This document shows positions 16,367 through 60,936 of a stretch of DNA of 64,000 nt, piece by piece (position 1 is the first letter of the stretch; each line of letters begins with the position of its first letter). The notes below the pieces were generated by a model. The model ran no database searches. It saw nothing but the letters and a program-made list of their open reading frames with translations, and was not told where the DNA came from. The position numbers and the translations under genes were made by a program. This DNA is from Balanoglossus misakiensis (Eukaryota > Animalia > Hemichordata), in NCBI GenBank assembly GCA_040954595.2, contig CM082579.2:14918550-14982549 (forward strand), read 5' to 3'.

Positions 16367-17458
16367 GGATGTTTTGTCGCCTTTGTACAAAACACAAGCA
16401 GAAGGCCAAGTGCGGAGGGACTTGGGTTACAACATCTCCATGTACATGTACCACCCTTCGCGAAGACAAACTCAAGCAGCATGAAGAGACGATTATCGAC
16501 CGGGCGGCAATGCAGCTTGACGCCGAGGCAGCAGTTATCGAGAACAGCAGCGGTCTTGTGGCTGCATTTGACAAGGTCATCACCTTTGAGACGCAAGCCT
16601 TCATGCATCGGCGTCCTACGATGCATGTATTTTCTCATGCACAGAGAATTGCCGCACACCACCAACTTCATCCATGTTTTGGAATTGGCAAAGTCCCTCG
16701 GGTGTTCATTCCTTGGTACTCTCAGCAGTGATGACCACAACTATAATGGTTTATTGCATTGGTAAGTAGGTCTACTGATTTTTGTGCAGATCTAAATTGT
16801 AGGCAATGTAGTGACATTTATTTAAACCTGGTTGTTTTCAAGAAAGGATCACTGTTTAAGCAATAGTGTTACACTCAATAAATAATAATTACTGTACAAA
16901 TTACTGTGAATTTTGATAAGTTTAATCTGAAGAGTAATTTTCATTTATTTCATTTTTCAGGCAAAGTCATCCGTGATGAGATTTTAGAGAAGATGAAAGG
17001 AAGTAACTTCTATTCACTGTTAATAGATGAAAACAACTGATGTGGCTGTATTGAAGCAATTAATCATCTATTCCAAGTACACCTTGAAGTCTGGGAAGTC
17101 AGTTGTGTCTTTCCTTGGAGTTAAAGAAGTAAGTGGAAAGTTTTTCAATTTTTAAGTCTACACTGAATTAAAAACATACGATTAAACATGTTTTTGAGTG
17201 ACCTCATTTAATTGATTTTGCTGACTAGTTATTTCAGGTGAGACAAACATTGAGTTGTACATTGCATGTGTTAACATCAAGGTTTTATTTTCACTGTTTT
17301 AGGTTGGTGATGGCAGAGCAGACACCATTGCACAGTCAGTGAAAGAGTTTTCTTCAGAGAATGGTATTGTCTTAAGAGATCGTCTGTCTGCTTTGGGCAG
17401 TGATGGTGCTCCTGTTATGCTAGGACAGAAAGGAGGGGTGGCTACCAAACTAAAAGAA
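16367..17458 (+). pseudogene. Intron-containing hAT-family transposase (ZNF862-like), frameshifted and 3'-truncated
   Basis: Exons 16367-16761 (MFCRLCTKH..C..LREDKLKQHE; LRCMYFLMHRELPHTTNF..LELAKSLG), 16961-17128 (FYSLLIDE/TTDVAVLKQLIIY, one extra A) and 17303-17458 (DGRADTI..ALGSDGAPVMLGQKGGVATKLK); canonical AG/GT sites; IDETTD and SDGA carry the first two catalytic Asp residues of hAT DDE transposases. Confidence 0.85.
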
Positions 17459-18269
17459 GTGAGTGAAATTTTGAGTTGTGAAGACATTGTGATTTTGTAA
17501 GTTTTTAGTTGGTGTCTTTATATCGTGACAATAATAATAGTAATAATTAAAGCTACAAGCAGCATTGAAGGGGCCCAAGCATAGAGATAATAACCATTAG
17601 ACTCCATTCAGGGTTGTACCATTCAATTGCGTAGGCTGTATTTGCTCTGGATGTGGAGATATGGGGAAGTAGGCAACCACCCGAAATGGATGTCCTACAA
17701 GTACAAACACAACAACCACAAGTGAACTTCTACGTTATGTAAGGACTTCAGTTAAGTACTTCAAAGGTCAGCTGAGGGTACCCAAAAATTGGGCCAAAAA
17801 TTTGGATTCCTATTTGGTTCATATTCAAGACAACGGAAAATTCTCGCCCTTTGGGTTTTTAAAATTAGGTATGGCCATAATAATGAGTTACGCAAGTAAG
17901 TTACAGGTGGCCCTAGGAATTTAGCATTTCATGACGGTCCTACCCTACCCCTCGAAACACGTGGCTATATATGATGTGCATGTTAACATATGGAAAGCAG
18001 GTCAATGGACACCTGAGGTCATTCAAAAATTTGACAGAAAAATTTCATTCCTGTTTATGTCTTGTGCAACAAATCCTACATTTGCAGCCCTTTCACTTTG
18101 CCTAACATTAGGTATGCACGTAATACATGAATCAAGCAGGTGTCAAAGGTATCCCCCTGTATTTGGCATTTCATGATAGTTTCATCCCTCCAAATACCAA
18201 AGCTGCACCTGTACAACGGGATGAGATATGGCACTGTATGACAGAGGTCATCCAAATCACCTTATACAT

Positions 18270-19126
18270 CAATCAATCAATCAATCAGAGAAATTTGTAT
18301 AGCGCCAGTATCTATAACAAGTGTCATACTCAAAGGCGCTTGTGCTCATTGGCCCACACCATATGCTCTTGCAAAATAATGCGTCTTCAGTCTTTTCTTA
18401 AAGATACTCAAACTTGGAGCTTGACGAATGTTCCACAGTTTCGTTGCAGCATGAGAGAATGCTCGGCCACCGTATGAAGAACGTTTGTACATTGTAGTGC
18501 ATAAAAGGCTCTTATTAGCTGAACGAAGCCTGCGACCAGGAGAATATGTCCGAATGAGATCGCGGATATAGTTCGGAGCGAGATTATTTAAGGCTTTGTA
18601 TGTGAGCAGATTTATTTTATACTCTATCCTGTGGCGAACTGGTAACCAATGAAGAAGTTGAAGAACTGGCGTTATATGGGCAGACTTCCTGGACCGAGTT
18701 ATGATTCTTGCAGCTGTATTTTGTGTGCGTTGTAGAAGGTTCAGACTGCGTTCTGGTATACCATACAGTAATGCATTACCATAGTCGAGTTTCGCTGCCA
18801 AAATAGCATGAATCACTGTTTGACATGTTGCTTTGTTAAGAAATTTCCTGATTTGTCCGACACGGCGAAAGTGGTAATATATTGATTGACAAGTTTTCTT
18901 GATGTGATCTTTATACATGTGCGTATTGTCAAATATTACACCAATATTGCGAGCTGATTTAACGACGGGAACAGAGCTTGAACCAATGGTAATCTTGTCA
19001 ATAGCATCAGCAGAGTGATGAAATTGTGAACGAATAAGTAGAATCTCAGTTTTTGGAGTCGTTGAGTTGAAGCTTGTTTTGGGTCATCCAGTCCTTAAGA
19101 TCACGGATACAGGCCTCAATGGACAT
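18270..19126 (-). mobile_element. 5'-truncated L2/CR1-group LINE (C-terminal ORF2)
   Basis: ORF 18346-18918 has LDYGNALLYG..LQRTQNTAAR..HITPVLQLLHWLPVRHRIEYK..FKKRLKT; (TGAT)n tail at 18270-18287; ACAT on both sides; absent from the empty site in copy 2 (~43661). Confidence 0.9.
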
Positions 19127-19828
19127 TTGGGCAAAAACCAACTGACACTTACATTCGTCCCTGTGGAACAAAAACCACACCTATCGCCCTGTTGGTTAGT
19201 GTCTAATTAAATGTACAAAATCAATGACTTAGGCAGGTGCAACAGACGACCCCGCCTTTGGTATATCATTATGGTCCCATCCGTATATGCCCCCCCCCCT
19301 CCCAAGCCAAAGCTGCATGCATCTGCTGTGGATGCTCACTAAGCAAAAGTAGGTGAAAGGTCACATAAGGTCGCCCACAACTTGACGGGAAAATCGGACT
19401 TCATATTGATCCATGTGCAACAAATAGCACGCTACCACCCCTTTCATTGACCCCACAATTACGCATGCACATAATTATTGAGTTATGCAGGTGTCACAGG
19501 TGACACCCGAATCGGGTGTATTATTTTAGTCCCATACAGCTGCATGTAGCTGCGTGCCGTTACGGGCGACCTGATAACCCACACGGCCACCTGCGGGCCG
19601 ACCCCCATACTGAACGTCCAGTTGCAACATCACGACTGAAGTAGGAACTTTTGAACGGCAACGAAGCCTGATCTCTGATTATTGCTGGTACCATACTCCT
19701 GTCGTGCAAGAAAATCACTGGTCTGCTGACGTATTTCAGCCAATTTCCCAAACTACTATCCACTACATGTGACTACAATGCTAATGAAACCTCCCACAAC
19801 ATTAGCGACTTAGGGTCAAAGTCCACTG

Positions 19829-22363
19829 TTTTAAATTTTTTCATCGGTTTTACTTTAAAGGATGCCCACAAATTGCAACAGTAAATATTACTACAATATG
19901 CCAAAAATAAAACTTTCTTCACATCTTGACTAAAATGTTGAAAATGTCTCAATAGCATGTTTGCTCTAACACAAAATGCTCTTCTCTGTCGTTCAATATC
20001 TTCATTATCACAACCCTCACAAGATATAACATGGCCCAGATAGGTGTGTACAGGTACAAACTTTAAAGTGATGTCATTAAGTTTAACCGAAGGAATTCTT
20101 TGAACGCTCATATTCTTCCCATTAAAAAGCATGCACACAGTTTTACTAGAATTATAAATTATATCATAATCATTGCCATAAATTTCACAAATTCTAAGAA
20201 GACGGTGTAGACCCTTAATACTTGGACTGAGTAGAGTCATGTCGTCAGCGTAACCTAAAGTGTTAGCGCTGACACCACACATGGTACAGCCAACTTTGGC
20301 TTTACAGAGTGCATTGATAAGATCATCAATGTAGACATTAAAAAGATAGGGAGAGAGTACTCCCCCTTGTCTTACACCGTTAGAAACAGAAAACAACTCT
20401 GAGGTTTCATTACCCCACAACACAGTAAACAATTGATTTCTGTACCATTAAAGGTCACATGTCATGCTTTGGAAAGTTTTCATTTTTCCACGTCAAAAGC
20501 TCACCTAGGGTACCTGTCTATGCATTGCCTATTGTGACGGTTCCGAAAAATGTGCACGAATGCCGGAATTTGCCACCTTTTTTCATGCCTGTGATCGGGG
20601 AGCCACTTCGCACTCGAGCCAGGCGAAGGTATTTGCATATGGACAAACAAGTACACTATGTCGTAGTGTACCATTCTGTTTACAGTAAAGTGTAATTATC
20701 GGTCCATGAGTAATTAAGTCCACAGACAAAGATAAGCTATATAAACAGTGTTCAAAGCAAAGGAAGCCCTTGCCTCACATTGCAGGCAGAGGATTTACAA
20801 AGGTGTGAAAGACTATTTGTCCACATCAAGATAAGTCTTCGGCTTAACTTCGAAAAGCCAAAAAAAATCGACTGAGTTGGGTTAGGGGTACACGCCCACC
20901 CGCCACTTTTACTTGCTTGTTATCTAAGCACAAGGGGCAAAACGCATTGCAAGATAGTAACATACGTTAACTTCAAGACCCAAATAGTGATTTTACGCGT
21001 GGTTGTATAGGGCATGGCATGGGACCTTTAATATAAAATTCGTACAGCATACAAGGGAACATTCCTGTCGATGAGCTTGTTAACCAGTTTAAAGTGATTA
21101 ACTCTGTCAAAAGCTTTTGAAGCATCCAGAAAACAAGTAAACACTGGTCTTCCATTGCTGGTGTAGTAGCTAATGATTTCTTTAAATGCAAATAAACACA
21201 GGTCAGTTGAATGTTCTCGCTTGAAACCAAATTGTAAATAATGAGAGGTAAGAAACTCCTCACAACGAGAAAGTAAAATAGGCTCAAAAACTTTAGAGAA
21301 AACAGTTGCTAGTGCTATCGGCCGGTAGTTACTGGCATCACTACAAAGCTTAGTTTTATCCTTAATTGGAACTAAAATAACGTTGATAGCCTCAGTTTGC
21401 AGGTAACCATGAACAATCAAGTCAAAATGGGTAAAATAGAGGAGTCTGAGAATTTGAGGTGCTCAGCTGAAATATTGTCAATGCCAGCTGTCTTATCGTC
21501 AGGTAACTTATGTATAGCAGAAATTACTTCTTCTTCAGAAACATACATATCAGAAGAAAATTTAACATACTTCATTTTCTCCTCGATGTCATTTTTACCA
21601 GTCTGAGCCTGGACAGAATTCAAAATATCACTGAAATGCTTGTGCCACATAATTGCAATTTCACTCTCACCAGTCGCTCCACCTACAGTGTCAGAAAGCG
21701 GCATTTTTCTGCTAGTTTGCTTTCTGACTTCCTTCCAGAAGTCGTTCTGTTTGTGGCAGCGTAAATTGTCAGCCATCTTGTCAGCCCTATTTTGATTCTC
21801 AATCTTTTTACAAGCACGTAAAGCATACTTAAAACGAGCTCTGGAAGATTTCATGGTTTCAAAAAGCGGGCCTTGTTAAGGTTTACCCCCATTAACCCAT
21901 AATAAAAACATGGAACGGGCATAGTCGTGACTTTCTTTTACAAAATCGTTCCAGCCAGGCACAACATGAACTTTCTGGTGAAACTTACGCCTAATGGTAT
22001 CTTTTGCAGCACAATTCAATGCGTCCACAACACTACTATAACAAGTATCAATTGCCTGTAAATGCGAAGGGTATGTACAGTTCACATTAGTGCAGAATAA
22101 CTCTTCGGATAAATTAATCTTATCAACCTTGGCTTTGGTACAACGGGTGTAGGCGGATATATTCTGCTGTGACAATTTTTTCCAATCAACTCGAAAATTA
22201 CATTGCTTGAAGGAACTACTGCTGAAGCATTCATCAGCAGAAGTGTTGAAATGAACCTCTATTGAAACAGGAATATGGTCGGAGTCAACAACATTGCAAA
22301 GACTCGAAATTGAAAGAACATTGCTATAAAAAATTTTTGTGGTAACACAGTGGTCAATCCAAA
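19829..22363 (-). mobile_element. Degenerate non-LTR retrotransposon (APE C-terminus + RT), copy 1, 3' end deleted
   Basis: WIDHCV..DSDHIP (APE end), NYRPIAL, QFGFK, FLDASKAFD, GVRQGGVLSP, YADD; frameshifts; interrupted by the 20452-21027 insertion; clade not assigned. Confidence 0.92.
20452..21027. mobile_element. 576-bp TTAA-specific non-autonomous DNA transposon (Kolobok-like) inside the LINE RT
   Basis: TTAA|aggtcacatgtcatgc...gcatggcatgggacct|TTAA; single TTAA empty site at 46067-46070. Confidence 0.9.
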
Positions 22364-23698
22364 CTCAGCGTAATTCAATAAAACGCCCTAACACAGCCTG
22401 AACTCCGATAATGTGTTGTCCCAAAATTCATTCCGTGGAAAATAATCACTGGTCTGTTTACGTATTTCAGCCGATTTTCCAAGGACTACTGCAACTCGCC
22501 AGAAGTGAGTAGCCTGCTAATGAGATCTCCACAACATTACGTAATGACGGTCAAAGTCCGATGCCCCAGTGTCCGTCCTCAGCCCACCAAAAAATGCGAA
22601 AAAATATTTCAAAAATCTTCTTCTCAAAATCGACGTGGCCTAGGACCTTGAAATTTGGCACAGGGGATTTTGGCCACATGGTCTACAAAAATCGCGAAAA
22701 GAATGTACATGCCCCCATTAACGTGCAAATTAGGTCAATTTGAAAATTTCGCTCGATTATAGCCACAAAGTCACGTGACTAATTACAAATTCAAAGGGCA
22801 GGTGCACCAGTACTCATGGGCCCCAACCACCGTGCCAAATTTGGAGGCGCACCTGCCGGAATTTCAGAGAAAAACGGGCGCAAAAAAACGACTCAAGAAG
22901 AAAGAAGACAAACTCCAGCAATAACAGAAGGGGACCAAGCGCCTGAGGGCTCTTGGTCCCCTAAATATGGGACTAAACTTGACAGATACCCGGAATATTT
23001 TCCTATTTAGGATACCTGGTTGCATTTCCACCTAAAGGCGTCCTATTGGCGTGGAAATTTTATAACTTGAAATCGTTTGACTGGGTGATAGGTATTAATA
23101 TCTTATGATGTTATAAAACACTTGGCTCGCCGAAGGTAAGGACCGATTATAGCGTCAGTCGTGTCATAAAATATATATGAACGTCATGGGTCAATAAACT
23201 TGATGGTCCAATAAAATTTAATGGTTCGTAAAACTATTGTGTCCAATGTCTGCAGAGTATACTGGCTGCAACATGTGTATGAGTCAGGATTAACGGCTGT
23301 AGCCATCAACCCAAAAGGTGAACGTCCTATTCTCACTAACTTAAATAGGTTTTGCGACCTAGTTGAGTGATAAAAACCTTATGATAAAGTCGACACAATT
23401 TCAAGATGACGATGTGCAAATGAGAGTTCATAAGCTAAAGTAAAGTTCAATGAATTCTATACAAAGTTCAAAAAAGATTTTTTACTAAAGGAAGACATGA
23501 ACAAACTGATATCGTCTCTTCATATTCGTACATGTCCAACTGTTGTGATTTGACCCCCCCCCCCCCCCCCATGGTACATGAACCTATTACTTAGTACACA
23601 CTTAAACAATTGCCATTTGATGTGCCTTGCTTGACAGTGTTTAATGCGGTGGTCAGCCGCGTTTATCTCTCGCCACTTCATGCATCATGTCGCCTTAA

Positions 23699-24018
23699 AG
23701 GGACAAACTCTCTCTCTCGTCGCCCTTTTCTATTAATTATGTTTGATACAAGACACCGTTTATATTAATGGGCATGTGTATATGTAGTGAATGAACGTTC
23801 AACCACACACAACTTCCATCCTGCTTGTATGATATGAGAGTAAAAACTCGCCCAAAATGAATTAATGGTAGAGACCGATTTTTCAGTTTTGCGAGTTTTC
23901 GCTCTCGTGTCTACATGCGGGATAGAAGGTGTGTGCGGTTGAACGTTGCATCACTATATATCCACATTTACATTAATATAAACGGTGTTTTGTATCAAAC
24001 ATGGAAAAGGGCAGCGAG
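23699..24018. mobile_element. Kolobok/T2-type MITE (family of 2780-3125), right end truncated
   Basis: TTAA|agggacaaactctctct..; shares internal sequence with 2780-3125. Confidence 0.75.
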
Positions 24019-24656
24019 TTAAGGATGTACGATCAGTAAAATTGAAAGCATTGTCATTTCTTTTAATCGTGAATTTTCGTTTCTGATTTGTATGTATAAT
24101 GAAAATCCATTTTGGGTCACTGCACTTGTTTTCGACTTTAAACAAGGCCGTGAATTTAGTCGACAATTGAAGAAAACTGCTAACGGTCAGCATTTTCTAC
24201 CAATGGTTTGTCTATGGATACAATATTGAACAAAGTTTATCTCAAAATAGAGCGTGATGAATTTATTTTGATTTGTCGGAGCTATGTGTAAAATTTCATG
24301 AAAATGACAATAGTAGAAGTGAGTTTTCTAACTATTCTCCATGTACTCCTATGGGAAGAGACACAGGCGCACAGTTTACCAGTTGACGACCTCTAAAGAG
24401 GAAACGGGGGGGGGGGGGATGATGAAAGGTTTAAGACTTACAGATCACAACTTAAAGAGCCATTCAGAAAGAGGCTTAGAGTGGAGTATCAAATCGGACG
24501 ATACCACTGACTGGTGGAGGAAGACAAAATAAGCAAACTGAGTAGATGAGTGCTCAGATTTCTTCAGAGGACCAAACGTTTCAAAGAATTATACGTGACA
24601 ATCCATGCCTGGTCCGTCAGTAGATATAAACAGAACATTGTGGCTGTATTCATTAA

Positions 24657-24947
24657 AGGGACCAAGTCTCTCTCTCGCTGCCCTTTTTCCATTAATTATG
24701 TTTGATACAAGACTGCGTTTATATTATTCTACATGTGGATATAGTGAATCAACGTTCAACCATACACACCTTCCACCCCGCTTGTATAGACACGAGAGTT
24801 TTAAAAAGTAGCCAAAATGAATAAACGGTCTCTACCATTTATTCATTTCGGGCGAGTTTTTACTCTCGTATCATACAAGCCGGATGGAAGTTGTGTGTGG
24901 TTGAACGTTCATTCACTAACATAAACGGTGTCTTGTATCATGTCCCT
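24657..24947. mobile_element. Kolobok/T2-type MITE (family of 2780-3125), opposite orientation
   Basis: TTAA|agggaccaagtc...tgtccct|TTAA. Confidence 0.8.
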
Positions 24948-25729
24948 TTAACACTTTTGAAGCATTTTACTAATGCTAACATGACTAGACCAATTGAATG
25001 ATGTTACATTGCAGGTTATCAACTCAGAGGGGCGTCTTGTTATAAAGCGGTACCTGACAAACAATCAGCTGGCAACGCTGAAAATACCTGTCAGTCGTAA
25101 GTATGAAAGTATACATCATTTGAGTAGAATTTTACGGGAGTTCCTAACAAGGCTTGGACATGTCACGCACAAATACAAAGGGCGCGTATAAAGACAGACA
25201 AAACCTCGCTCAGTGTGAGGTGTTCAGCGATTGCATCTGATAAGTCGAAAATGCTTGATCACGTGTCATGTTCAGTTGGGAAATTGGATATGTCTCAGGC
25301 CAAAAAAACTAATATGTGCTATTCCGATTACATGGTTTTCAAAAATATTGTAGGTAGAAAGGGACATTTTTTTATTTTTCAATTTTTTTTATATCTTTGG
25401 CCGTCGTAGTGTAGAAGAATGACATCATAGATCTTGCGTGATTCTCGCAATTTTCATGAATTGTTTTATATTTGACATCGTTATTTTTACTTCCGGTTTG
25501 CGAAGATCTAAACTGTTTTGGGTCGGCGGGCTAAAATTAGGGTAGTTCGGGTAATCGTTATGACATTGGGAGCTACGGCTGCAAAACCATGTGTCTCGTG
25601 CGAAAAGGGCCCTTAACCTTTTGCAATATTTAACAGCAAACAACAGACAGTTTTGAGAATAAAAGGTTTCCGTCGTGTCTGACTTTCATATCGCATTAAT
25701 AGCATATCCCTAATTTTAAAGAAATTAGG

Positions 25730-25960
25730 AGAGACAGAGTGAAACAGGCAGAGTGGCAGACAGACACAAGCAGACAGACAGAGCAACATTCATCAGTAGA
25801 GACACTCACCGGTCGCTCGCTCGCTCGCTCACTCTCTCTCTCAGAGAGAGGGGGCAGACAGTCAGACAGACAGACGTTGACAGACAGTCAGTAAGTCAGT
25901 CAGCCAGTTAATCAGTCAGTCAGACGTCAAAGACACAGTGACACAAACACAGCGAGGGAG
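25730..25960. repeat. Compound microsatellite (GACA/CTCG/CAGT/GA)
   Basis: cagacagaca, tcgctcgctcgc and cagtcagt runs; duplicated at ~50930-51165 with one extra TCGC unit. Confidence 0.8.
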
Positions 25961-27455
25961 ACAAAAGGACCTTTCATGCTTAAACCCCTGTTCTTCTGTT
26001 ATAAACTTTGAAAACCGTTCGTTTTCAGACTGCAGATTGCTCGAATAACGCGGCACACTGCCGAAACAATAAAACAAATACTAGTGGGAGCTCATAAAAT
26101 AAAATCGCTCAACCATTCCGTCGTCCTGAGTGACCTCAGCCACATTAATTCCGACGTCTTTTTAGGGTCATGAAAAAAGTCACAAATAAGGTATTTCCCC
26201 TAGGTCCACCTGAAGCAAAAAGTTTTCGTTTCGACTCCATCATTCCGAATAGTAAGAAAGCAACAAAATTGAAAAGACAGATGTAAAATGCAATCTCTCT
26301 CACGTGGTAACGTTTGTAACTATGGCAATCACGGTACGTGTTCAGTACACAGACAGGGAGAAAAGTTTCCCCATGCAATACATGTGTTCAGTAAGGTTTG
26401 ACCTTGGTTTTACTTTGTACCATGATCGCCGCTTTCTAAGCATGGATGAACGACGGCGGTCAGACCCAATCGAACCCTTTCATGTCAGATGACCACGGTA
26501 TCTCCAGTGTGAGATGACATTTGACAAACCATTTGATTTCAACAAAATCTTCGCGTCGTCAACGCGTCGCATACCAGTCGCATATCGGTATTTACCCAAT
26601 CATAAAAGTTGGAAATTCGGGAGACTCGATCTGCAACCAAGTTGAGAGTAAATTTTGACGTTTGACTATTGGCAAGTAAACAGGTTACACAATGACTTGT
26701 CGGTTTTTCCTCCGTCATGGTCGTTCTTGACCCAAGTGTCCTTCCTTGACATTTAGACACACCTTGCGGTATGACCTTGGTGGTCATGTGCAATTAGTTT
26801 TCTTGTATAAGACGCTTTTCATGCCGGGGTAGACGACTTGTGCGTGGATCATCAACATTTCAGTGATATTTCAACGCAAAGTTTTAGCAATATTGAGAAA
26901 ACAGGTAGTGAGGTGTCAAATGCATATCAATGTACGAAAATTAGGTCAAGCCACCCGACAGCAACCGCTTTCACACAGTGTCGGACGTTGCACGGAATGT
27001 GAAACGTTACACTGCTTCGGCCGTTCACATGCACCTGGGCGTGGTTTTGATTGATGGTCAAACGCCCCCACTTACTTTGGGCGTTTTCAATGGTAAATGT
27101 GTCGTATTGATCGAAACCTTGCCGTAAACACATTTTTTTTGCTGAATCAACATTCAGAGTTCAGCCGTCTAGTTAACGAAGTATTGAAATAAGCCACTTG
27201 TTCATCATTTTTTGTCTGTCAAACGTGTTTATTCGGACAGGGACCGGCCGCCAATGAGTGGTTTAGGGAGCCCACACGTACACTCTGGTACCTGGACAAT
27301 TAACAAAGACATGACGTGTGTACCGTCCGGTTCGAAAAGATTGGTTTAAGGTAGTCCTGGTAACAGTCATCCTAACGAGGCCAGGGGAGGTCTCCAAGGG
27401 CGAAATAAACAAAGCTACCGATGACGAGTTGAATTCGAATCGGACGATGCTTGTT

Positions 27456-42400: not shown

Positions 42401-43530
42401 AATTTCGTAGATTTTTTGAAAAAAGACGGGTGAAAATCATCTAAAAATGACAAATTTTCGACTTTGCAAAATCTCAAAATTTCGTTGATTTTTGAAAAAA
42501 ATCATGGGGGAAAATCATCAAAAAATGACAAATTTACGACTACAAAATCTCAAAATTTCGTCGATTTGTGAAAAAAAATCATGGGTGAAAATCATCAAAA
42601 AATGACAAATTTTCGACTTTGCAAAATCTCAAAATTTTGCCAATTTTGAAAAAATCATGGGTGAAAATCATCAAAAAATGACAAATTTTTTACTGCAAAA
42701 TCTCAAATTTTCGTCGATTTTTTAAAAAAATTGTTGAAAATCATCAAAAAATGACAAATTTTTGACTGCAAAATCTCAAAATTTCGTCGATTTTTGAAAA
42801 AAAATCATTGTTGAAAATCATCACAAAATGACAAATTTTCCTCTTTGCAAAATCTCAAAATTTCGTCGATTTTTGAAAAAAGACATGGGTGAAAATCATC
42901 AAAAAATGACAAATTTACGACTGCAAAATCTCAAAATTTCGTCGATTTGTGAAAAAAAATCATGGGTGAAAATCATCAAAAAATGACAAATTTTTGACTG
43001 CAAATTCTCAAAATTTCGTCAATTTTTGAAAAAAATCATGGTTGAAAATCATCATGACAATGACAAATTTTCGACTTTGCAAAATCTCAAAATTTCGTCG
43101 ATTTTGAAAAAAATCATGGGTTCGTCCATTTTTGAAAAAAAACATTCGGTGAAAATCATCAAAAAATGACAAATTTTCGACTTTGCAAAATCTCAAAATT
43201 TCGTCGATTTTTGAAGAAAATCATGGGTGAAAATCATCAAAAAATTACAAATTTTCAACTTTGCAAAATCTCAAAATATCGTCAATTTTAATAAAAATCA
43301 TCGGTGAAAACCATCAAAAAATTACAATTTTTTTACTGCAAAATCTCAAATTTTCGTCGATTTTTTAAAAAAATTGTTGAAAATCATCAAAAAATGACAA
43401 ATTTTCCTCTCTTGCAAAATCTCAAAATTTCGTCGATTTTTGAAAAAAGACGGGTGAAAATCATCAAAAAATGACAAATTTTCGACTTTGCAAAATCTCA
43501 AAATTTCGTCGATTTTTGAAAAAAATCATG
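27456..43530 (+). repeat. 78-bp satellite DNA array (~16.1 kb, ~200 monomers)
   Basis: Consensus atgggtgaaaatcatcaaaaaatgacaaattttcgactttgcaaaatctcaaaatttcgtcgatttttgaaaaaaatc repeated head-to-tail in one orientation, with 76-bp and 42-bp variants. Confidence 0.98.
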
Positions 43531-44298
43531 GCAGGTGTCAAAGGTATCCCCCTGTATTTGGCATTTCATGATAGTTTCCTCCCTCCAAATACCAAAGCTG
43601 CACCTGTACAACGGGATGAGATATGGCACTGTATGACAGAGGTCATCAAAATCACCTTATACATTTGGGCAAAAACCAACTGACACTTACATTCGTCCCT
43701 GTGGAACAAAAACCACACCTATCGCCCTGTTGGTTAGTGTACAATTAAATGTACAAAATCAATGACTTAGGCAGGTGCAACAGGTGACCCCGCCTTTGGT
43801 ATGTCATTATGGTCCCATCCGTATATGCCCCCCCCCCCCCCCCAAGCCAAAGCTGCATGCATCTTCTGACCCCACAATTACGCATGCACATAATTATTGA
43901 GTTACGCAGGTGTCACAGGTGACCCCCGAATCGGGTGTATTATTTTGGTCCCATACAGCTGCATGTAGCTGCGTGCCGTTACGGGCGACCTGATAACCCA
44001 CACGGCCACCTGCGGGCCGACCCCCATACTGAACGTCCAGTTGCAACATCACGACTGAAGTAGGAACTTTTGAACGGCAACGAAGCCTGATCTCTGATTA
44101 TTGCTGGTACCATACTCCCTTCGTGCAAGAAAATCACTGGTCTGCTGACGTATTTCAGGCAATTTCCCAAACTACTATCCACTACATGTGACTACAATGC
44201 TAATGAAACCTCCCAGGACATTAGCGACTTAGAGTCAAAGCCCACTGCCAGTGTAGCCGGGTTTGCGTAGACACATTTGAATGGCAACAGCTAACAAA

Positions 44299-47200
44299 TA
44301 ATAATAATTCTTTATTTCAGACTTTAAATAAAGTCCATATACCCAAAAGAGAGAAGAAAAAAAAAACAATAATAATAATCTGACACTGAGACACACACAA
44401 AAAAAACTTACATGATATACAATTGCTTTCGCCAATGTTTGAAAAATATGCTGTCAGTCGCTCTATCTGATGAACAGATCGCATCAAGTAAAACATTAGA
44501 AGAATTTTCGAGTCTACGCTTAAGATGGGTCCCTGGGATCTTTTTGCTCGTTGCTATGGGCCTTTATAGGACATTACACCCCGATTTGGACTAAGCCGTT
44601 TTCAGAGTCTAACAAGGGGCTGGTAACTAGTTGAAAATCTGCACGATTGTGAGCGCGCGCCCCCTGACGCCATATGAAAATTAGCTAGGTTAAATTTCAA
44701 AAGCCTAAGGCTTTTTATTCCGTGACCTCAAAAACGAACTTGATACGTATTCATTAGTTGCTTGAACCAGGGAAGATCGTGACGGATTTTGTTTTCGAAT
44801 ATTATCGTTGTATCCTAAGATTTCAGCATACCCGTACCACACCTGAAAAAGTCATCGATTTTGGGTGTTTTTGGACGCACTCTTCCAGCGGTATCGCTTC
44901 TTAGCACGACGAAAACCGAAAAAACGATCCGTCACACTGTGCGGAAGTGCGTTCTCAACAAGCAGGTCAAATTTGACTGGCGTACGTGGCCTATGAAAAA
45001 AGCCTTAGGGATTTTCGTGAACGGTACAAAATCTCTGTGTACAAAACATTGGATTTTTAGCGTTCGATCCAGTTACTGTGGTTACAGGACGCGCACGCTA
45101 TCGCTGACCGCTGCTTTGCCGTATTAGCGTGGCGGCCTATGGCCGGGTGGTAGCTGCCGTCAACATACTCGGACAGGGGGTGTGCACACAATCGTGCAGA
45201 TTTTCAACTAGTTACCAGCCCCTTGTTAGACTCTGAAAACGGTTTAGTCCAAATCGGGGTGTAATGTCCTATAAAGGCCCATAGCAACGAGCAAAAAGAT
45301 CCCAGGGACCCATCTTAAAACTGTACATATTGCGTCTAAAAACTTCACCAAGTGACAATACATGTACATGGTTTGTAGCAAACATACCCGATGCACAGCA
45401 AAATGGCGGAAGACCGAGAAATCTTCTCCAAACATTATTGTACATAGTTTTAAATTTTTTCATCGGTTTAACTTTAAAGGATGCCCACAAACTGCAACAG
45501 TAAATATTACTACAATATGCCAAAAATAAAACTTTCTTCACATCTTGACTACAATGTTGAAAATGTCTCAATAGCATGTTTGCTCTTACACAAAATGCTC
45601 TCCTCTGTCGTTCAATATCTTCATTATCACAACCATCACAAGATATAACATGGCCCAGATAGGTGTGTACAGGTACAAACTTTAAAGTGATGTCATTAAG
45701 TTTAACCGAAGGAATTCATTGAACGCTCATATTCTTCCCATTAAAAAGCATGCACACAGTTTTACTAGAATTATAAATGATATCATAATCCTTGCCATAA
45801 ATTTCACAAATTCTAAGAAGACGGCGTAGACCCTTAATACTTGGACTGAGTAGAGTCATGTCGTCAGCGTAACCTAAAGTGTTAGCGCTGACACCAGACA
45901 TGGTACAGCCAACTTTGGCTTTACAGAGTGCATTGATAATATCATCAATGTAGACATTAAAAAGATAGGGAGAGAGTACCCCCCCTTGTCTTACACCGTT
46001 AGAAACAGAAAACAACTCTGAGGGTTCATTACCCCACAACACAGTAAACAATTGATTTCTGTACCATTAATATAAAATTCGTACAGCATACAAGGGAACA
46101 TTCCTGTCGATGTGCTTGTTAATTATAACCAGTTTAAAGTGATTAACTCTGTCAAAAGCTTTTGAAGCATCCAGAAAACAAGTAAACACTGGTCTTCCAT
46201 TGCTGGTGTAGTAGCTAATGATTTCTTTAAATGCAAATAAACACAGGTCAGTTGAATGTTCTCGCTTGAAACCAAATTGTAAATAATGAGAGGTAAGAAA
46301 CTCCTCACAACGAAAAAGTAAAATATGCTCAAAAACTTTAGAGAAAACAGTTGCTAGTGCTATCGGCCGGTAGTTACTGGCATCACTACAAAGCTTAGTT
46401 TTATCCTTAATAATTGGAACTAAATTAACATTGATAGCCTCAGTTGGCAGGTAACCATGAACAATCATTGCATTAATACAACAAGTCAGAAAGGGTAAAA
46501 TAGAGGAGTCTGAGAATTTGAGGTGCTCAGCTAAAATATTGTCAATGCCAGCTGTCTTACCGTCAGGTAACTTATGTATAGCAGAAATTACTTCGTCTTC
46601 AGAAACATACATATCAGAAGAAAATTTAACATACTTCATTTTCTCCTCGATGTCATTTTTACCAGTCTGAGCCTGGACAGAATTCAAAATATCACTGAAA
46701 TGCTTGTGCCACATAATTGCAATTTCACTCTCACCAGTCGCTCCACCTACAGTGTCAGAAAGCGGCGTTTTTCTGCTAGTTTGCTTTCTGACTTCCTCCC
46801 AGAAGTCGTTCTGTTTGTGGCAGCGTAAATTATCAGCCATCTTGTCAGCCCTATTTTGATTCTCAATCTTTTTACAAGCACGTAAAGCATACTAAAAACG
46901 AGCTCTGGAAGATTTCACGGTTTCAAAAAGCGGGCCTTGTTTAGGTTTACCCACATTAACCCATAATAAAAACATGGAACGGGCATAGTCGTGACTTTCT
47001 TTTACAAAATCGTTCCAGCCAGGCACAACATGAACTTTCTGGTGAAACTTACGTCTAATGGTATCTTTTGCAGCACAATTCAATGCGTCCACAATACTAC
47101 TATAACAAGTATCAATTGCCTGTAAATGCGAAGGGTCTGTACAGTTCACATTAGTGCAGAATAACTCTTCGGATAAATTAATCTTATCAATCTTGGCTTT

Positions 47201-47427
47201 GGTACAACCGGTGTAGGCGGATATATTCTGCTGTGACAATTTTTTCCAATCAACTCGAAAATTACATTGCTTGAAGGAACTACTGCTGAAGCTTTCATCA
47301 GCAGAAGTGTTGAAATGAACCTCTATTGAAACAGGAATATGGTCGGAGTCAACAACATTGCAAAGACTCGAAATTGAAAGAACATTGCTATGAGAAATTT
47401 CAGTGGTAACACAGTAGTCAATCCAAA
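44299..47427 (-). mobile_element. Degenerate non-LTR retrotransposon, copy 2, 3' tail retained
   Basis: Same APE/RT motifs (ORFs 46892-47239, 46067-46840, 45716-46051, 45269-45577); minus-strand AATAAA followed by an (ATT)n tail at ~44299-44317; in-frame stops. Confidence 0.92.
44524..45314. mobile_element. 791-bp TTAA-flanked non-autonomous DNA transposon with ~128-bp TIRs (Kolobok-like)
   Basis: TTAA|gatgggtccctgggatctttttgctcg...cgagcaaaaagatcccagggacccatc|TTAA; near-perfect TIRs; inserted in the LINE ORF2 C-terminus. Confidence 0.9.
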
Positions 47428-48765
47428 CTCAGCGTAATTCAATAAAACGCCCTAACACAGCCTGAACTCCGATAATGTGTTGTCCCAAAATTCATTCCGT
47501 GGAAAATAATCACTGGTCTGTTTACGTATTTCAGCCGATTTTCCAAGGACTACTGCAACCCGCCAGAAGTGAGTAGCCTGCTAATGAGATCTCCACAACA
47601 TAACGTAATGACGGTCAAAGTCCGATGCCCCAGTGTCCGTCCTCAGCCCACCAAAAAAAGCGAAAAAATATTACAAAAATCTTCTTCTCAAAATCGACGT
47701 GGCCTAGGACCTTGAAATTTGGCACAGGGGATTTTGGCCACATGGTCTACAAAAATCGCGAAAAGAATTTACATGCCCCCATTAACGTGCAAATTAGGTC
47801 AATTTGAAAATTTCGCTCGATTATAGCAACAAAGTCACGTGACTAATTACAAATTCAAAGGGCTGGTGCACCAGTACTATGGGCCCCAACCACCGTGCCA
47901 AATTTGGAAGGCGCACCTGCCGGAATTTCAGAGAAAAACGGGCGCAAAAAAACGACTCAAGATGAAAGAAGACAAACTCCAGCAATAACAGAAGGGGACC
48001 AAGCGCCTGAGGGCTCTTGGTCCCCTAAATATGGGACTAAACTTGACAGATACCCGGAATATTTTCCTATTCAGGATACCTGGTTGCATTTCCACCTAAA
48101 GGCGTCCTATTGGCGTGGAAATTGTATAACTTGAAATCGTTTGACTGGGTGATAGGTATTAATATCTTATGATGTTATAAAACACTTGGCTCGCCGAAGG
48201 TATGGACCGATTATAGCGTCAGTCGTGTCATACAATCTATATGAACGTCATGGGTCAATAAACTTGATGGTCCAATAAAATTCAATGGTTAGTAAAACTA
48301 TTGTGTCCAATGTCTGCAGAGTATACTGGCTGCAACATGTGTATGAGTCAGGATTAATGTCTGTAGCCATCAACCCAAAAGGTGAACGTCCTATTCTCAC
48401 TAACTTAAATAGGTTTTGCGACCTAGTCTAGTTATAAAAACCTTATGATAAAGTCGACACAATTTCAAGATGACGATGTGCAAATGAGAGTTCATAAGCT
48501 AAAGTAAAGTTCAATGAATTCTATACAAAGTTCAAAAAAGATTGTTTACTAAAGGAAGACATGAAAAAACTGATATCGTCTCTTCATATTCGTACATGTC
48601 CAACTGTTGTGATTTGACCCCTCCCCCCCCCCAGGACATGGTACATGAAGCTATTACTTAGTACACACTTAAACAATTGGCATTTGAAGTGCCTTGCTTG
48701 ACAGTGTTTAATGCGGTGGTCAGTCGCGTTTATCTCTCGCCACTTCATGCATCATGTCGCCTTAA

Positions 48766-49061
48766 AGGGGCAAACTCTCTCTCCCGTCGCCCTTTTCTAT
48801 TAATAATGTTTGATACAAGACACCGTTTATATTAATGGGCATGTGTATATGTAGTGAATGAACGTTCAACCACACACAACTTCCATCCTGCTTGTATGAT
48901 ATGAGAGTAAAAACTCGCCCAAAATGAATAAATGGTAGAGACCGATTTTTCAGTTTGGCGAGTTTTCGCTCTCGTGTCTACATGCGGGATGGAAGGTGTG
49001 TGCGGTTGAACGTTGCATCACTATATATCCACATTTACATTAACATAAACGGTGTTTTGTA
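48766..49061. mobile_element. Kolobok/T2-type MITE, duplicate of 23699
   Basis: TTAA|aggggcaaactctct..; right end deleted. Confidence 0.7.
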
Positions 49062-49858
49062 TTGTCATTTCTTTTAATCGTGGATTTTCGTTTCTGATTT
49101 GTATGTATAATGAAAATCCATTTTGGGTCACTGCACTTGTTTTCGACTTTAAACAAGGCCGTGAATTTAGTCGATAATTGAAGAAAACTGCTGACGGTCA
49201 GCATTTTCTACCAATGGTTTGCCTATGGATACAATATTGAACAAAGTTTATCTCAAAATAGACCGTGGTGAATTTATTTTGATTTGTCGGAGCTATGTGT
49301 AAAATTTCCTGAAAATGACAATAATAGAAGGGAGTTTTCTAACTATTATCCATGTACTCCTATGGGAAGAGACACAGGCGCACAGTTTACCAGTTGACGT
49401 TCTGCGCGTACATCATTGAGTGTACTGGCAGCTAACTTATTGTTTATTTGTAACAGCAATTGGATCTTGGAGCACTGTTTGGAACACCCTTTGTGAAATA
49501 TGAATGTCCAGAAGGTAAGTTGAATTGACCCTAGCCCTTTCACCAACATGGTTCAGTCAAAACCAATTGTTTTCTATGGTAATGTTGGACCTCTAAAGAG
49601 GAAACGGGGGGGGGGGGGGGGTGATGAAAGGTTTAAGACTTACAGATCACAACTTAAATAGCCATTCAGAAAGAGGCTTAGAGTGGAGTATCAAATCGGA
49701 CGATACCACTGACTGGTGGAGGAAGACAAAATAAGCAAACTGAGTAGATGAGTGCTCAGATTTCTTCAGAGGACCAAACGTTTCAAAGAATTATACGTAA
49801 CAATCCATGCCTGGTCCGTCAGTAGATATAAACAGAACATTGTGGCTGTATTCATTAA

Positions 49859-50149
49859 AGGGACAAAGTCTCTCTCTCACTGCCCTTTTTCCATTAATTA
49901 TGTTTGATACAAGACTGCGTTTATATTATTCTACATGTGGATATAGTGAATCAACGTTCAACCATACACACCTTCCACTCCGCTTGTATAGACACGAGAG
50001 TTTTAAAAAGTCGCCAAAATGAATAAACGGTCTCTACCATTTATTCATTTCGGGCGGGTTTTTACTCTCGTATCATACAAGCGGGATGGAAGTTGTGTGT
50101 GGTTGAACGTTCATTCACTAACATAAACGGTGTCTTGTATCATGTCCCT
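49859..50149. mobile_element. Kolobok/T2-type MITE, duplicate of 24657
   Basis: TTAA|agggacaaagtc...tgtccct|TTAA. Confidence 0.8.
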
Positions 50150-53100
50150 TTAACACTTTTGAAGCATTTTACTAATGCTAACATGACTAGACCAATTGAA
50201 TGATGTTACATTGCAGGTTATCAACTCAGAGGGGCGTCTTGTTGTAAAGCGGTACCTGACAAACAATCAGCTGGCAACGCTGAAAATACCTGTCAGTCGT
50301 AAGTATGAAAGTATACATCATTTGAGTAGAATTTTATGGGAGATCCTGACAAGGCTTGGACATGTCACGCACAAATACAAAGGGCGCGTATAAAGACAGA
50401 CAAAACCTCGCTTAGTGTGAGGTGTTCAGCGATTGCATCTGATAAGTCGAAAATGCTTGATCACATGTCATGTTCAGTTGGGAAATTGGATATGTCTCAG
50501 GCCAAAAAAACTAATATGTGCTATTCCGATTACATGGTTTTCAAAAATAGGGTAGGTAGAAAGGGACATTTTTTTATGTTTCAATTTTTTATATCTTTGG
50601 CCGTCGTAGTGTAGAAGAATGACATCATAGTTCTTGCGTGATTCTCGCAATTTTCATGAATTGTTGTATATTTGACATCGTTATTTTTACTTCCGGTTTA
50701 CGAAGATCTAAACTGTTTTGGGTCGGCGGGCTAAAATTAGGGTAGTTCGGGTAATCGTTATGACATTGGGAGCTACGGCTGCAAAGCCATGTGTCTCGTG
50801 CGAAAAGGGCCCTTAACCTTTTGCAATATTTAACAGCAAACAACAGACAGTTTTGAGAATAAAAGGTTTCCGTCGTGTCTGACTTTCATATCGCATTAAT
50901 AGCATATCCCTAAATTTAAAGAAATTAGGAGAGACAGAGTGAAACAGGCAGAGTGGCAGACAGACACAAGCAGACAGACAGAGCAACATTCATCAGTAGA
51001 GACACTCATCGGTCGCTCGCTCGCTCGCTCGCTCACTCTCTCTCTCAGAGAGAGGGGGCAGACAGTCAGACAGACCGACGTTGACAGACAGTCAGTAAGT
51101 CAGTCAGCCAGTTAATCAGTCAGTCAGACGTCAAAGACACAGTGACACAAACACAGCGAGGGAGACAAAAGGACCTTTCATGCTTAAACCCCTGTTCTTC
51201 TGTTATAAACTTTGAAAACCGTTCGTTTTCAGACTGCAGATTGCTCGAATAACGCGACACACTGCCGAAACAATAAAACAAATACTAGTGGGAGCTCATA
51301 AAATAAAATCGCTCAACCATTCCGTCGTCCTGAGTGACCTCAGCCACATTAATTCCGACGTCTTTTTAGGGTCATGAAAAAAGTCACAAATAAGGTATTT
51401 CCCCTAGGTCCACCTGAAGCAAAAAGTTTTCGTTTCGACTCCATCATTCCGAATAGTAAGAAAGCAACAAAATTGAAAAGACAGATGTAAAATGCAATCT
51501 CTCTCACGTGGTAACGTTTGTAACTATGGCAATCACGGTACGTGTTCAGTACACAGACAGGGAGAAAAGTTTCTCCATGCAATACATGTGTTCAGTAAGG
51601 TTTGACCTTGGTTTTACTTTGTACCATGATCGCCGCTTTCTAAGCATGGATGAACGACGGCGGTCAGACCCAATCGAACCCTTTCATGTCAGATGACCAC
51701 GGTATCTCCACTGTGAGATGACATTTGACAAACCATTTGATTTCAACAAAATCTTCGCGTCGTCAACGCGTCGCATACCAGTCGCATATCGGTATTTACC
51801 CAATCATAAAAGTTGGAAATTCGGGAGACTCGATCTGCAACCAAGTTGAGAGTAAATTTTGACGTTTGACTATTGGCAAGTAAACAGGTTACACAATGAC
51901 TTGTCGGTTTTTCCTCCGTCATGGTCGTTCTCGACCCAAGTCCCCCCTCCCAATGTCCTTCCTTGACATTTAGACACACCTTGCGGTATGACCTTGGTGG
52001 TCATGTGCAATTAGTTTTCTTGTATAAAAGCTTTTCATGCCGGGGTAGACGACTTGTGCGTGGATCATCAACATTTCAGTGATATTTCAACGCAAAGTTT
52101 TAGCAATATTAAGAAAACAGGTAGTGAGGTGTCAAATGCATATCAATGTACGAAAATTAGGTCAAGCCACCCGACAGCAACCGCTTTCACACAGTGTCGG
52201 ACGTTGCACGGAATGTGAAACGTTACACTGCTTCGGCCGTTCACATGCACCTGGGCGTGGGTTTGATTGATGGTCAAACGCCCCCACTTACTTTGGGCGT
52301 TTTCAATGGTAAATGTGTCGTATTGATCGAAACCTTGCCGTAAACACATTTTTTTTGCTGAATCAACATTCAGAGTTCAGCCGTCTAGTTAACGAAGTAT
52401 TGAAGTAAGCCACTTGTTCATCATTTTTTGTCTGTCAAACGTATTTATTCGGAAAGGGACCGGCCGCCAATGAGGGGTTTAGGGAGCCCACACGTACACT
52501 CTGGTACCTGGACAATTAACATAGACATGTCGTGTGTACCGTCCGGTTCGAAAAGATTGGTTTAAGGTAGTCCTGGTAACAGTCATCCTAACGAGGCCAG
52601 GGGAGGTCTCCAAGGGCGAAATAAACATAGCTACCGATGACGAGTCGAATTCGAATCGGACGATGCTTGTTCATAAAAGGCACAAACATAAAGCTTCGAA
52701 GTTTTTTGTCTGTGTAGTAAAGATACGACTAATCAGCCTATAGTGTAACCGTAGACCCTGGAGAAATACCAGAGCACAGCACAATGCAGCAAATGGAGTG
52801 AAACAAGAACAAAGCTTAGTCTCTGCCGCAAACAAAGCTAAATCACATATTGACACTCCAAATAGAAGCAAGACAGCCGGGGGGGGGGGGGAGGCACAGT
52901 TGTAGATCGCGGTGTTGACCCGCCCCTTCCACATCCTGTAGATGTTTGTGCGTCCAAGGCATTTTTGATAAAATATAGACTTTTGTTTTTAGCTCGAGTG
53001 TGGCCTAAGTATATCACCGTTCACACGAAAAATGTCTGTCTTTTTCAAAACGTTGTATTATACTTCTGTGTAATTTGAACTCTAATACAAGTGACAGTAT

Positions 53101-56202: not shown

Positions 56203-56398
56203 CAGTTTTTCATCCAGATGGAGGGATGAGGGAATTCGCCCACTGTCAGCATGTTGGCACCCCCCTAGAAATTGGTCAAGGGGGAAATGGTGCCCCTTAC
56301 AGACTCAGCAATGTCACTCATTCCCCTCCTTGCAAGAGTGCAACTATTCAAGCAAAGGGGGACATATCCCCCCCCCCCCCATCCTGGATGAAACACTG
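56203..56398. mobile_element. Intronic MITE with CAG..CTG ends and 7-bp TSD (hAT/P-like)
   Basis: CTGTATG|cagtttttcatccagatg...catcctggatgaaacactg|CTGTATG. Confidence 0.7.
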
Positions 56399-56434
56399 CT
56401 GTATGCATCTTCTTTCTTTATTTCCATTTTATAG

Positions 56435-56650
56435 GATTTAGTGGACCCAATCGAGATGGCAGTGTGGAATATGATTATTCAGATGGCAGGAAAGGTAGTG
56501 TCTTTGATGGTCGATGGGCAGACACAGAACCTGATGCCTCCACTGGGCAATGTGTGAGGTTAAACCTCTTTGAAAATAATTACCCATTGTATCATGCAAG
56601 ATGTGATGATGTCAGTCTGTCAATGTGTGAAGTAGCAGCTTGTGCTGAGG
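56435..56650 (+). CDS. Exon: C-type lectin domain, C-terminal half
   Basis: ttttatAG|..|GTAAGT; FSGPNRDG..DGRWADTEPDASTGQCV..ARCDDVSLSMCEVAACAEG. Confidence 0.88.
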
Positions 56651-56764
56651 GTAAGTCTGATTCAAATCAGCTAGAATCTTCCCTTACTCGCATCAGGTCT
56701 TTACTTTTCTCGCACTGCTGTAGTCACCTCCCAATATATATACTAAGAGAGAGTGTGTGCAAAA

Positions 56765-60734: not shown

Positions 60735-60936
60735 TTTCTACATTTTGACACTGAACTTTATTATGATACTGTTGTCATTGTCGAGGTGTCTGTGTTTGAC
60801 CCATCCAAAGTTCTTGCCACATACAGTGGACCGGACCAGCCTGATGAAGTTATTAGCAGTGGTAATGCAATGTTGGTGAAATTTCTCTCAGATAGTTCGC
60901 ATACTGCTACTGGCTTTGAAGCATCTTGGCAAGCAG
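60735..60936 (+). CDS. Exon: CUB1 second half
   Basis: ttttcAG|..|GTAAT; FLHFDTELYYDTV..LATYSG..VISSGNAMLVKFLSDSSHTATGFEASW. Confidence 0.9.

What the first reader, a model, noticed from the sequence alone, without database searches (positions are those of the whole stretch)
18136..52671. 16-kb satellite array bounded by a ~9-kb direct duplication (giant-TSD architecture)
Seen: unique - D1 (18136-27455) - satellite - D2 (43531-52671) - unique. Both junctions are base-sharp with no filler: gcttgtt|ttcgac shares TT, and aatcatg|gcagg compares with the original aatcaa|gcagg. No satellite occurs elsewhere in the window. The duplication start lies inside a Helentron-type (rolling-circle family) element. 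Inference: a single event (integration of a circular intermediate or microhomology-mediated template switching) seeded a satellite at a new locus while copying 9 kb of target. D1/D2 recombination could then excise or amplify the satellite+D unit as a ~25-kb circle, making it a candidate satellite-mobilising system. An assembly join of two haplotypes across the array is the main alternative.
Basis: partly seen in the sequence, partly recalled or inferred. Interest (0 to 1): 0.85.

Follow-up and report, generated by a model that had tools for sequence, protein, structure and literature searches.

The report
Satellite inserted between duplicated 9-kb copies
A 16-kb block of a 78-base repeat sits between two 98%-identical copies of a 9-kb stretch; both joins appear in public reads and depth suggests about half of the sampled chromosomes carry it, so it is likely a real, one-off DNA-repair accident that planted the repeat at a new place, not a proven repeat-moving system.

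Summary
Observation confirmed: D1 (18136-27455), a one-directional 78-bp array of about 214 units (27456-43530), D2 (43531-52671), sharp junctions. It is not a pristine target-site duplication: D1/D2 differ at 147 of 7702 aligned bases and 18 indels, including private transposon insertions and deletions. A plain haplotype join is disfavoured: read contigs of one public sample hold both satellite junctions and the D-to-flank junction, and depth in the single-copy part of D (2759-2920) fits a duplication on half of the chromosomes (predicted 2746-2889), not single copy (at most 2040-2400). No molecule spanning the array was seen. The microhomologies are chance-level, first and last units do not make a whole monomer (28 bases missing), and the breakpoint is 585 bases inside a HINE-like element, not at its end. 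Best reading: tandem duplication with a templated satellite insert from one repair event, then growth in place; segregating. Nothing supports repeated mobilisation; other arrays could not be examined (no genome held). The scan noted kb-scale flanking duplications around a mobile element in a fungus (e1-9849450), not this satellite.

The parts
18136..27455 (+). D1, left copy of the duplicated segment (mostly transposon relics plus about 1.5 kb of single-copy, non-coding sequence at its right end)
   Evidence: no Pfam match at its curated cut-off in D1 other than two RVT_1 stretches
27456..43530 (+). 78-bp satellite array, about 214 units, head-to-tail, begins at unit column 3 and ends at column 52; units 4.3% from their majority; higher-order blocks, one exact 1739-bp duplication at offset 1727
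43531..52671 (+). D2, right copy of the duplicated segment, continuous with single-copy flank at 52672
27454..27456 (.). D1-satellite junction, 2-base microhomology, no filler; present as a loose end in a read contig of run X1
   Evidence: table 7
43530..43531 (.). satellite-D2 junction, 1-base microhomology, no filler; present in read contigs of X1 (depth 999) and X2
   Evidence: table 5c
17551..19600 (+). HINE-like (non-autonomous Helentron-like) element with internal degenerate repeats; the duplication starts 585 bases inside it; D2 carries its 3' part
   Evidence: high summed read depth
18266..19122 (-). 857-bp 3' piece of a LINE (L2-type by recall of its tail), only in D1
19773..22364 (-). 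decayed LINE with reverse transcriptase domain, shared by D1 and D2 (D2 45269-47428); its 3' end (about 400 bp) is kept in D2 and lost in D1
   Evidence: (PF00078)
20448..21027 (.). 580-bp TTAA-flanked element (Kolobok-like ends by recall), only in D1
44520..45318 (.). about 800-bp element with 143-bp terminal inverted repeats, only in D2
49399..49587 (.). 189-bp piece only in D2; its start is a loose end in X2 contigs

Best explanation
This is a tandem duplication with a 78-bp satellite array at its junction, whose two junctions are in public read contigs and which by depth likely lies on about half of the sampled chromosomes; it likely arose in one replication or break-repair event that copied several satellite units from a donor array and resumed about 8 kb upstream, after which the array likely grew in place. 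Shown: architecture, both junctions in reads, 1.9% divergence plus private insertions and deletions, higher-order blocks in the array. Inferred: carrier share of about one half; single event; donor elsewhere; in-place growth from a seed of at most about 6.5 kb; an original duplicated length of about 8.2 kb. Untested: that one molecule carries D1, array and D2 in this order; that any circle forms.
For: Junctions: satellite-to-D at depth 999 in X1 and 1204 in X2; D-to-satellite as an X1 loose end behind 52671 (table 7); D-to-flank contigs start 22 and 30 bases before the junction, as expected where the graph forks there. Depth: 3 of 3 X1 contigs listed for the single-copy part of D (2920, 2798, 2759) against 2889, 2829, 2746 predicted for half of the chromosomes at the GC-matched baseline of 2040, 1869/1809/1726 for single copy and 3738/3618/3452 for a fixed duplication; at 52522 the D1 allele is 1201 of 3234. 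The majority path through 26508-27305 takes D2 letters at 4 and D1 letters at 6 of 10 differences, interleaved, as a third allele would cause. No N or gap in the window. Array: 60% lies in exact repeats of 160 bases or more against 4.6% mean (maximum 9.2%) in 20 shuffles of unit order; 6483 bases remain after dropping later exact 100-base copies; 215 120-mers are shared between its left and right thirds. Units are 4.3% from their majority against about 1% per D copy, so the variants likely predate the event. Summed satellite depth in X1 (4.65 million at 27494) is about 5 times what unitigs of this array alone predict (0.91 million) and one listed variant is absent from this array. Template-switch repair (FoSTeS, MMBIR, SDSA) is proposed for new satellite clusters in PMC7403614 (passages read).
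Against: Microhomology is chance-level, so no pathway is fingerprinted. The depth figure is one mean per contig and the tool warns it is no copy number; with the AT-rich left flank as baseline (2400) the observed values fall between single copy (max 2400) and half carriers (3231-3399). Only one sample informs (X1 = X2; X2 looks like Hi-C and its depth is unusable; X3 depth about 2; X6 laid 20 reads). No listed piece spans the array. The extreme upper bound for this array alone (4.77 million) reaches the observed satellite depth, so a donor elsewhere is not proven. D1/D2 are as far apart as alleles may be (18 listed differing sites in 2129 bp of right flank in X1), so a single template is not shown. 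Variant classes change from left to right along the array, which also fits two arrays fused.
Confidence: 0.57

Rival explanations
1. Unequal crossover between two independently seeded arrays: one chromosome had the satellite at the right end of D, a homologue had it at the left end, and recombination between the arrays put two alleles of D in tandem with a fused array between them.
For: D1/D2 differ like alleles, with private transposon insertions; left-type variants fade and right-type variants rise between about 31.5 and 35.6 kb.
Against: Needs two insertions of a minor satellite 9 kb apart. No satellite-to-right-flank loose end was listed at 52672 (12 loose ends shown, 156 not shown) and no left-flank-to-satellite joint was listed (lists cut). 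A start-type block followed directly by an end-type block lies mid-array (35245-36071), and exact 120-mers are shared across it.
Confidence: 0.13
2. A recurrent satellite-mobilising route: satellite circles or other donors integrate at widely staggered breaks and routinely duplicate kilobases of target, and D1/D2 recombination can pop the unit out as a 25-kb circle or amplify it.
For: Architecture is that of an insertion with a target duplication. Satellites are found on circles and new Rsp-like clusters carry 32-bp flanking duplications (PMC7403614, passages); a mobile satellite made de novo insertions of 0.5 to over 21 kb in Chlamydomonas (PMC9977147, passages).
Against: Last and first units do not complete a monomer (28 bases missing), the circle signature named in PMC7403614. 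Junction depth (999) equals one extra copy per carrier, so no amplification. The majority path is interleaved, not a single D1-to-D2 switch as a pop-out product would give. One case only.
Confidence: 0.12
3. The junctions are real but the assembly links them wrongly: either an extra D copy sits inside a satellite array at another place, or two haplotypes were joined across the array.
For: No molecule spanning the array was seen; D1/D2 divergence resembles heterozygosity, the main source of false duplication in PMC9516828 (passages); an exact 1739-bp repeat in the array could be an assembly loop. An extra copy elsewhere would give the same depth.
Against: Pure haplotype join predicts D depth at or below the flank; 3 of 3 contigs exceed even the higher baseline; no gap lies between the copies. 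A dispersed copy would require D1 and D2 to be chimeras switching within an identical run, but the longest identical run is 316 bases.
Confidence: 0.11
4. A satellite transcript was retrotransposed by a LINE enzyme with a distant second nick, giving a kb-scale target-site duplication, and the insert later expanded.
For: L1 inserts with duplications up to 6765 bp occur in repair-deficient cells (PMC5223499, passages and tables seen); Dualen inserts give a median of 900 bp (PMC9977147). The left junction ends in a T-rich primer-like end, and LINE relics lie in D.
Against: No poly(A) or tail at either junction; only 2 bases pair; the duplication is longer than any of those listed; transcription of the satellite was not tested.
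Confidence: 0.05

Closest known systems
New Rsp-like satellite clusters in Drosophila simulans and D. mauritiana (Sproul et al. 2020, PMC7403614; 12 passages read, supplements not read)
   Same: Satellite array at a new euchromatic place, sharp junctions with short microhomology, a flanking duplication in four clusters, repair or circle reintegration proposed.
   Different: There the duplication is 32 bp and the target is another satellite; here about 8-9 kb of mixed sequence is duplicated, microhomology is 1-2 bases, and the complementary first/last monomer is absent.
Mobile satellite MSAT-11_cRei and Dualen-4b_cRei LINE of Chlamydomonas reinhardtii (PMC9977147; 12 passages read)
   Same: De novo satellite insertions of 0.5 to over 21 kb; separately, insertions flanked by long duplications (median 900 bp).
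   Different: In the passages read the long duplications belong to a LINE, and none is described for the satellite; here both features are at one site, and recurrence is not shown.
[quoted passage not shown]
   Same: Insert between two direct copies of several kb of target.
   Different: Those are tailed retrotransposon copies made in culture; this insert has no tail and no coding sequence.
Replication-stress tandem duplications joined by polymerase theta (PMC13031928; 1 text passage and 2 reference entries seen)
   Same: Large tandem duplication whose junction shows microhomology or a templated insertion.
   Different: Those insertions are small and often match nearby sequence; here the insert is a multi-unit satellite with no copy elsewhere in the window.
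Heterotype false duplication (Ko et al. 2022, PMC9516828; 12 passages read)
   Same: Two adjacent copies that differ like haplotypes.
   Different: Half depth and a gap between copies were tested and not met.

Membership tests
Heterotype false duplication | Combined depth over the pair equal to single-copy flank (half depth per copy) | tested here: not met
   Contig depth 2759-2920 against a single-copy maximum of 2040-2400; contig means, one sample
Heterotype false duplication | Gap or unsupported junction between the copies | tested here: not met
   No N; both satellite junctions in read contigs
Heterotype false duplication | No long molecule links the two copies | not testable with these tools
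   No listed piece spans the stretch; no long reads were offered
Tandem duplication with templated insertion (FoSTeS/MMBIR/TMEJ type) | Direct copies with a foreign insert exactly at the junction | tested here: met
Tandem duplication with templated insertion (FoSTeS/MMBIR/TMEJ type) | Junction microhomology above chance | tested here: inconclusive
   2 and 1 bases; chance 0.19 and 0.47 in 100,000 random joins
Tandem duplication with templated insertion (FoSTeS/MMBIR/TMEJ type) | Donor template present elsewhere in the genome | tested here: inconclusive
   Satellite depth 5 times the unitig model but within the extreme bound; one variant absent from this array; no genome held
Satellite circle (eccDNA) reintegration | Truncated first and last units together form one whole monomer | tested here: not met
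   Starts at column 3, ends at column 52, 28 bases missing
Satellite circle (eccDNA) reintegration | Satellite present in a circle fraction | not testable with these tools
   needs circle sequencing
Retrotransposed insert with long target-site duplication | Poly(A) or simple tail at the 3' junction | tested here: not met
Recurrent mobile satellite | Several insertions with the same flank signature | not testable with these tools
   no genome; 0 matches in metagenome contigs; 0 look-alikes in scan notes
HINE (non-autonomous Helentron), element at the duplication start | 12-15 bp subterminal inverted repeats | tested here: met
   17551-17563 and 19539-19551, 12 of 13; the only such matches in the window besides the D2 copy; feature list from PMC4067079 passages. 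Taken alone the match had E 1.6
HINE (non-autonomous Helentron), element at the duplication start | Short 3' palindrome after the 3' repeat, central tandem repeats | tested here: met
   hairpin 19584-19600; degenerate repeats at about 240 and 135 bp spacing
HINE (non-autonomous Helentron), element at the duplication start | Insertion in TT shown by an empty site; autonomous partner | not testable with these tools
   no second full copy in the window, no genome
Helentron-driven duplication | Breakpoint at an element end | tested here: not met
   break at 18136 is 585 bases inside the 5' repeat and 1.4 kb from the 3' end

The most novel reading that the evidence does not exclude
This 78-bp satellite spreads by a dedicated, recurrent route in which each new array duplicates kilobases of its target, so satellite seeding is itself a source of segmental duplications, and the long direct repeats let the satellite-plus-flank unit leave as a 25-kb circle.
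Probability: 0.1. Interest if true: 0.8.

Novelty: new variant of a known kind. Interest (0 to 1): 0.42.

Why it matters
How satellites first reach new loci is open; the traces are usually erased or tiny. Here both junctions, the duplicated target and (by depth) the empty allele still seem to coexist in one sample, so the founding event can be read directly with long reads. If it is a one-off, it is a clean natural example of a satellite captured at a tandem-duplication junction with a flank duplication some 250 times longer than the 32 bp reported in Drosophila. If other arrays show the same, satellite spread would be a route to segmental duplication. I found no paper describing a satellite array with a kb-scale target duplication in 9 full-text searches, a library that lacks most subscription papers; supplements were not read.

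Tried and rejected
Whole genome not held, so other arrays could not be checked. A 38-base array stretch had 0 exact matches in metagenome contigs. X2 shows a GATC-GATC loose end and GATC-bounded joints, so its depth was dropped as Hi-C-like. Depth of the L2 piece and of the 857-bp skip was not used, because both lie in multi-copy elements. A host gene in D was sought: 130 frames of 60 residues or more (59 of 62 from D and nearby, the rest from the flanks, of 191 listed) gave Pfam matches above cut-off only for RVT_1 (2) and CUB (2, outside D). The exon-like stretch at 13460-13996 found no homologue among longer proteins, and 10 recalled short motifs gave 3 matches without matching context. Helentron-driven duplication rejected (break is internal). 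Clean circle integration rejected (units do not complement). Amplification of the satellite-plus-D unit not seen in depth. Scan notes near this place and on look-alikes gave nothing.
Full report
Observation. The window has no N. Self-BLAST shows collinear direct matches between 18136-27455 and 43531-52671. A global alignment gives 7702 aligned bases, 147 mismatches (98.1% identity; 68 transitions, 79 transversions) and 18 indels. Between them lies a 16,075-bp array of a 78-bp unit, 214 units by wrap-around tiling, all on one strand. No unit is found outside the array with three probes at up to 4 mismatches. Both junctions lack filler; exact microhomology is 2 bases at the left and 1 at the right. 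In 100,000 random joins of D to the array, 2 or more bases occur in 19% and 1 or more in 47%, so these overlaps carry no weight.

The copies have a history. D1 alone has an 857-bp LINE 3' piece and a 580-bp TTAA-bounded element; D2 alone has an about 800-bp element with 143-bp inverted ends and a 189-bp piece; D1 has lost about 400 bp of the end of a shared LINE; D2 has lost 121 bp that match an internal repeat upstream. The duplicated length at origin was thus about 8.2 kb (inference: 7702 + 121 + 401). Mismatches are spread along the whole segment; the longest identical run is 316 bases. The family names L2 and Kolobok are recalled from end motifs and come from no call; RVT_1 in the shared LINE is from Pfam. 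No host exon was found in D. Scan notes on the same genome suggest an acorn worm; I did not test this.

Is it an assembly join? A search with 24400-27900 listed 24 runs, 4 of which hold the stretch. I laid X1, X2, X3 and X6 on 11500-27515 and X1 and X2 on 51200-54800. X1 and X2 are one sample. The satellite-to-D junction stands as a joint in X1 (depth 999) and X2 (1204). The D-to-satellite junction stands as a 26-base loose end behind 52671 in one X1 contig; it is not among the six X2 loose ends shown. Contigs crossing into the right flank begin 22 (X1) and 30 (X2) bases before the junction, just short of the tool's 31-base bridging rule but where a fork at 52671 would cut them. D2-only features are also in the contigs (skips of 857, 580 and 56; loose ends of the 1200- and 189-bp pieces). 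Of 25 other letters listed in D1, 21 are the D2 letter.

Depth. In the right flank, X1 sites with two alleles sum to 1994, 2103 and 2028, with the minor allele at 21-23%; the sample therefore holds more than two haplotypes or an extra one, and its majority differs from the window at 6 listed flank sites. The single-copy part of D has the same GC as this flank (0.431 and 0.427). The three X1 contigs listed there have depth 2920, 2798 and 2759. With baseline 2040 a single-copy D predicts 1869, 1809, 1726; a duplication on half of the chromosomes 2889, 2829, 2746; a fixed one 3738, 3618, 3452. At 52522 the D1 letter has 1201 of 3234 (predicted 1020 and 2040). With the AT-rich left flank as baseline (2400) the fit to one half is looser (3231-3399), but single copy (max 2400) still falls short. 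The tool warns that contig depth is no copy number; I treat this as good but indirect support from one sample. By the criteria in PMC9516828 (passages read), half depth and a gap are not met; linkage by long molecules is untested. An extra D copy inside an array elsewhere would give the same depth and remains open, though it needs chimeric D1/D2.

The third allele. Along 26508-27305 the majority path takes D1 letters at 6 and D2 letters at 4 of 10 differences, interleaved. A pop-out product would switch once. So the single-copy chromosomes look like ordinary alleles about equally far from D1 and D2 (inference). The event is then either as old as allelic diversity or joined two alleles.

The array. 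Units differ from their majority by 4.3% substitutions (197 full units), about four times the per-copy divergence of D, so the variants likely came in with a multi-unit seed, unless the array mutates faster. 60% of the array lies in exact repeats of 160 bases or more (shuffled unit order: mean 4.6%, maximum 9.2% in 20 shuffles), and 6483 bases remain after later exact 100-base copies are dropped: growth in place by block duplication is likely. The first 400 bases match 35245-35644 (97%) and the last 400 match 35671-36071 (94%), adjacent in mid-array, which fits one origin for both ends. Against this, variant classes shift from left to right. The array starts at column 3 and ends at column 52, leaving 28 bases missing; the circle signature named in PMC7403614 is not met. 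Summed X1 depth at one satellite position is 4.65 million, against 0.91 million from unitigs of this array and 4.77 million as extreme bound; one of three listed variants is absent from this array. A donor elsewhere is likely, not shown; the upper estimate of about 2300 units marks a minor satellite.

The element at the duplication start has inverted 13-mers at 17551 and 19539, a hairpin at 19584 and central repeats, matching the HINE layout in PMC4067079 (12 passages read). The break lies 585 bases inside it, so its ends did not set the break.

Mechanism. Most likely (0.57) a stalled fork or broken end at the right end of D copied satellite units from a donor and rejoined about 8 kb upstream, or two re-replicated ends were joined through a satellite patch; then the array grew and each copy gathered its own changes. 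Rivals: unequal crossover between two arrays (0.13), a recurrent mobilising route (0.12), wrong linkage in the assembly (0.11), retrotransposition with a distant second nick (0.05). D1/D2 recombination could in principle delete or amplify the 25.2-kb unit (follows from general knowledge of direct repeats), but depth shows one extra copy per carrier and no hybrid allele was seen.

Known kinds. Satellite seeding with 32-bp flank duplications (PMC7403614), a mobile satellite and, separately, LINE insertions with long duplications (PMC9977147), L1 duplications up to 6765 bp (PMC5223499) and tandem duplications with templated junctions (PMC13031928) are in print; PMC11610590 (9 passages read) reports no duplication at Tribolium array junctions (the word does not occur in its main text). 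The combination at this size was not found in 9 searches; supplements were not read. Verdict: a real, probably segregating structural variant; new variant of a known kind; interest 0.42.

Noticed in passing
window 6691-7815 and 8884-10430: Two opposed arrays of a 160-170-bp tandem unit (78-82% alike, inverted) around about 1 kb: foldback-like element.
   Followed up: no
window 13460-14103 (-): Exon-like stretch whose C-terminal hydrophobic end resembles UBE2J1 by recall only; its two halves lie in different frames although read contigs show no indel; no homologue found, no upstream exons by motif.
   Followed up: partly
window about 16990-17150 (+): Spliced-looking piece that reads like a hAT/ZNF862-type transposase fragment by eye; not tested.
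   Followed up: no
window 60684-60956 and 62576-62869 (+): Two CUB-domain exons (Pfam PF00431), and a lectin-like exon by eye at 56392-56826, of a gene right of D2.
   Followed up: no
window 25636-27136 and its D2 copy 51200-52671: Single-copy stretch with lower D1/D2 divergence (10 mismatches in 1500 bases against about 2% elsewhere), CpG- and CCAAT-rich by eye: a possible duplicated promoter.
   Followed up: no
window 30395-33860: Exact 1739-bp duplication inside the array: very recent growth or an assembly loop.
   Followed up: partly
window 52672-54800 in run X1: A divergent haplotype at 21-23% of depth, with 8 listed differences within 54674-54732 region and nearby, so the sample is not a simple diploid at this locus.
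   Followed up: partly
window 2776-3144, 23695-24018, 24639-24926, 48760-49062, 49841-50128: A palindromic, about 300-350-bp MITE-like family with very high read depth.
   Followed up: no
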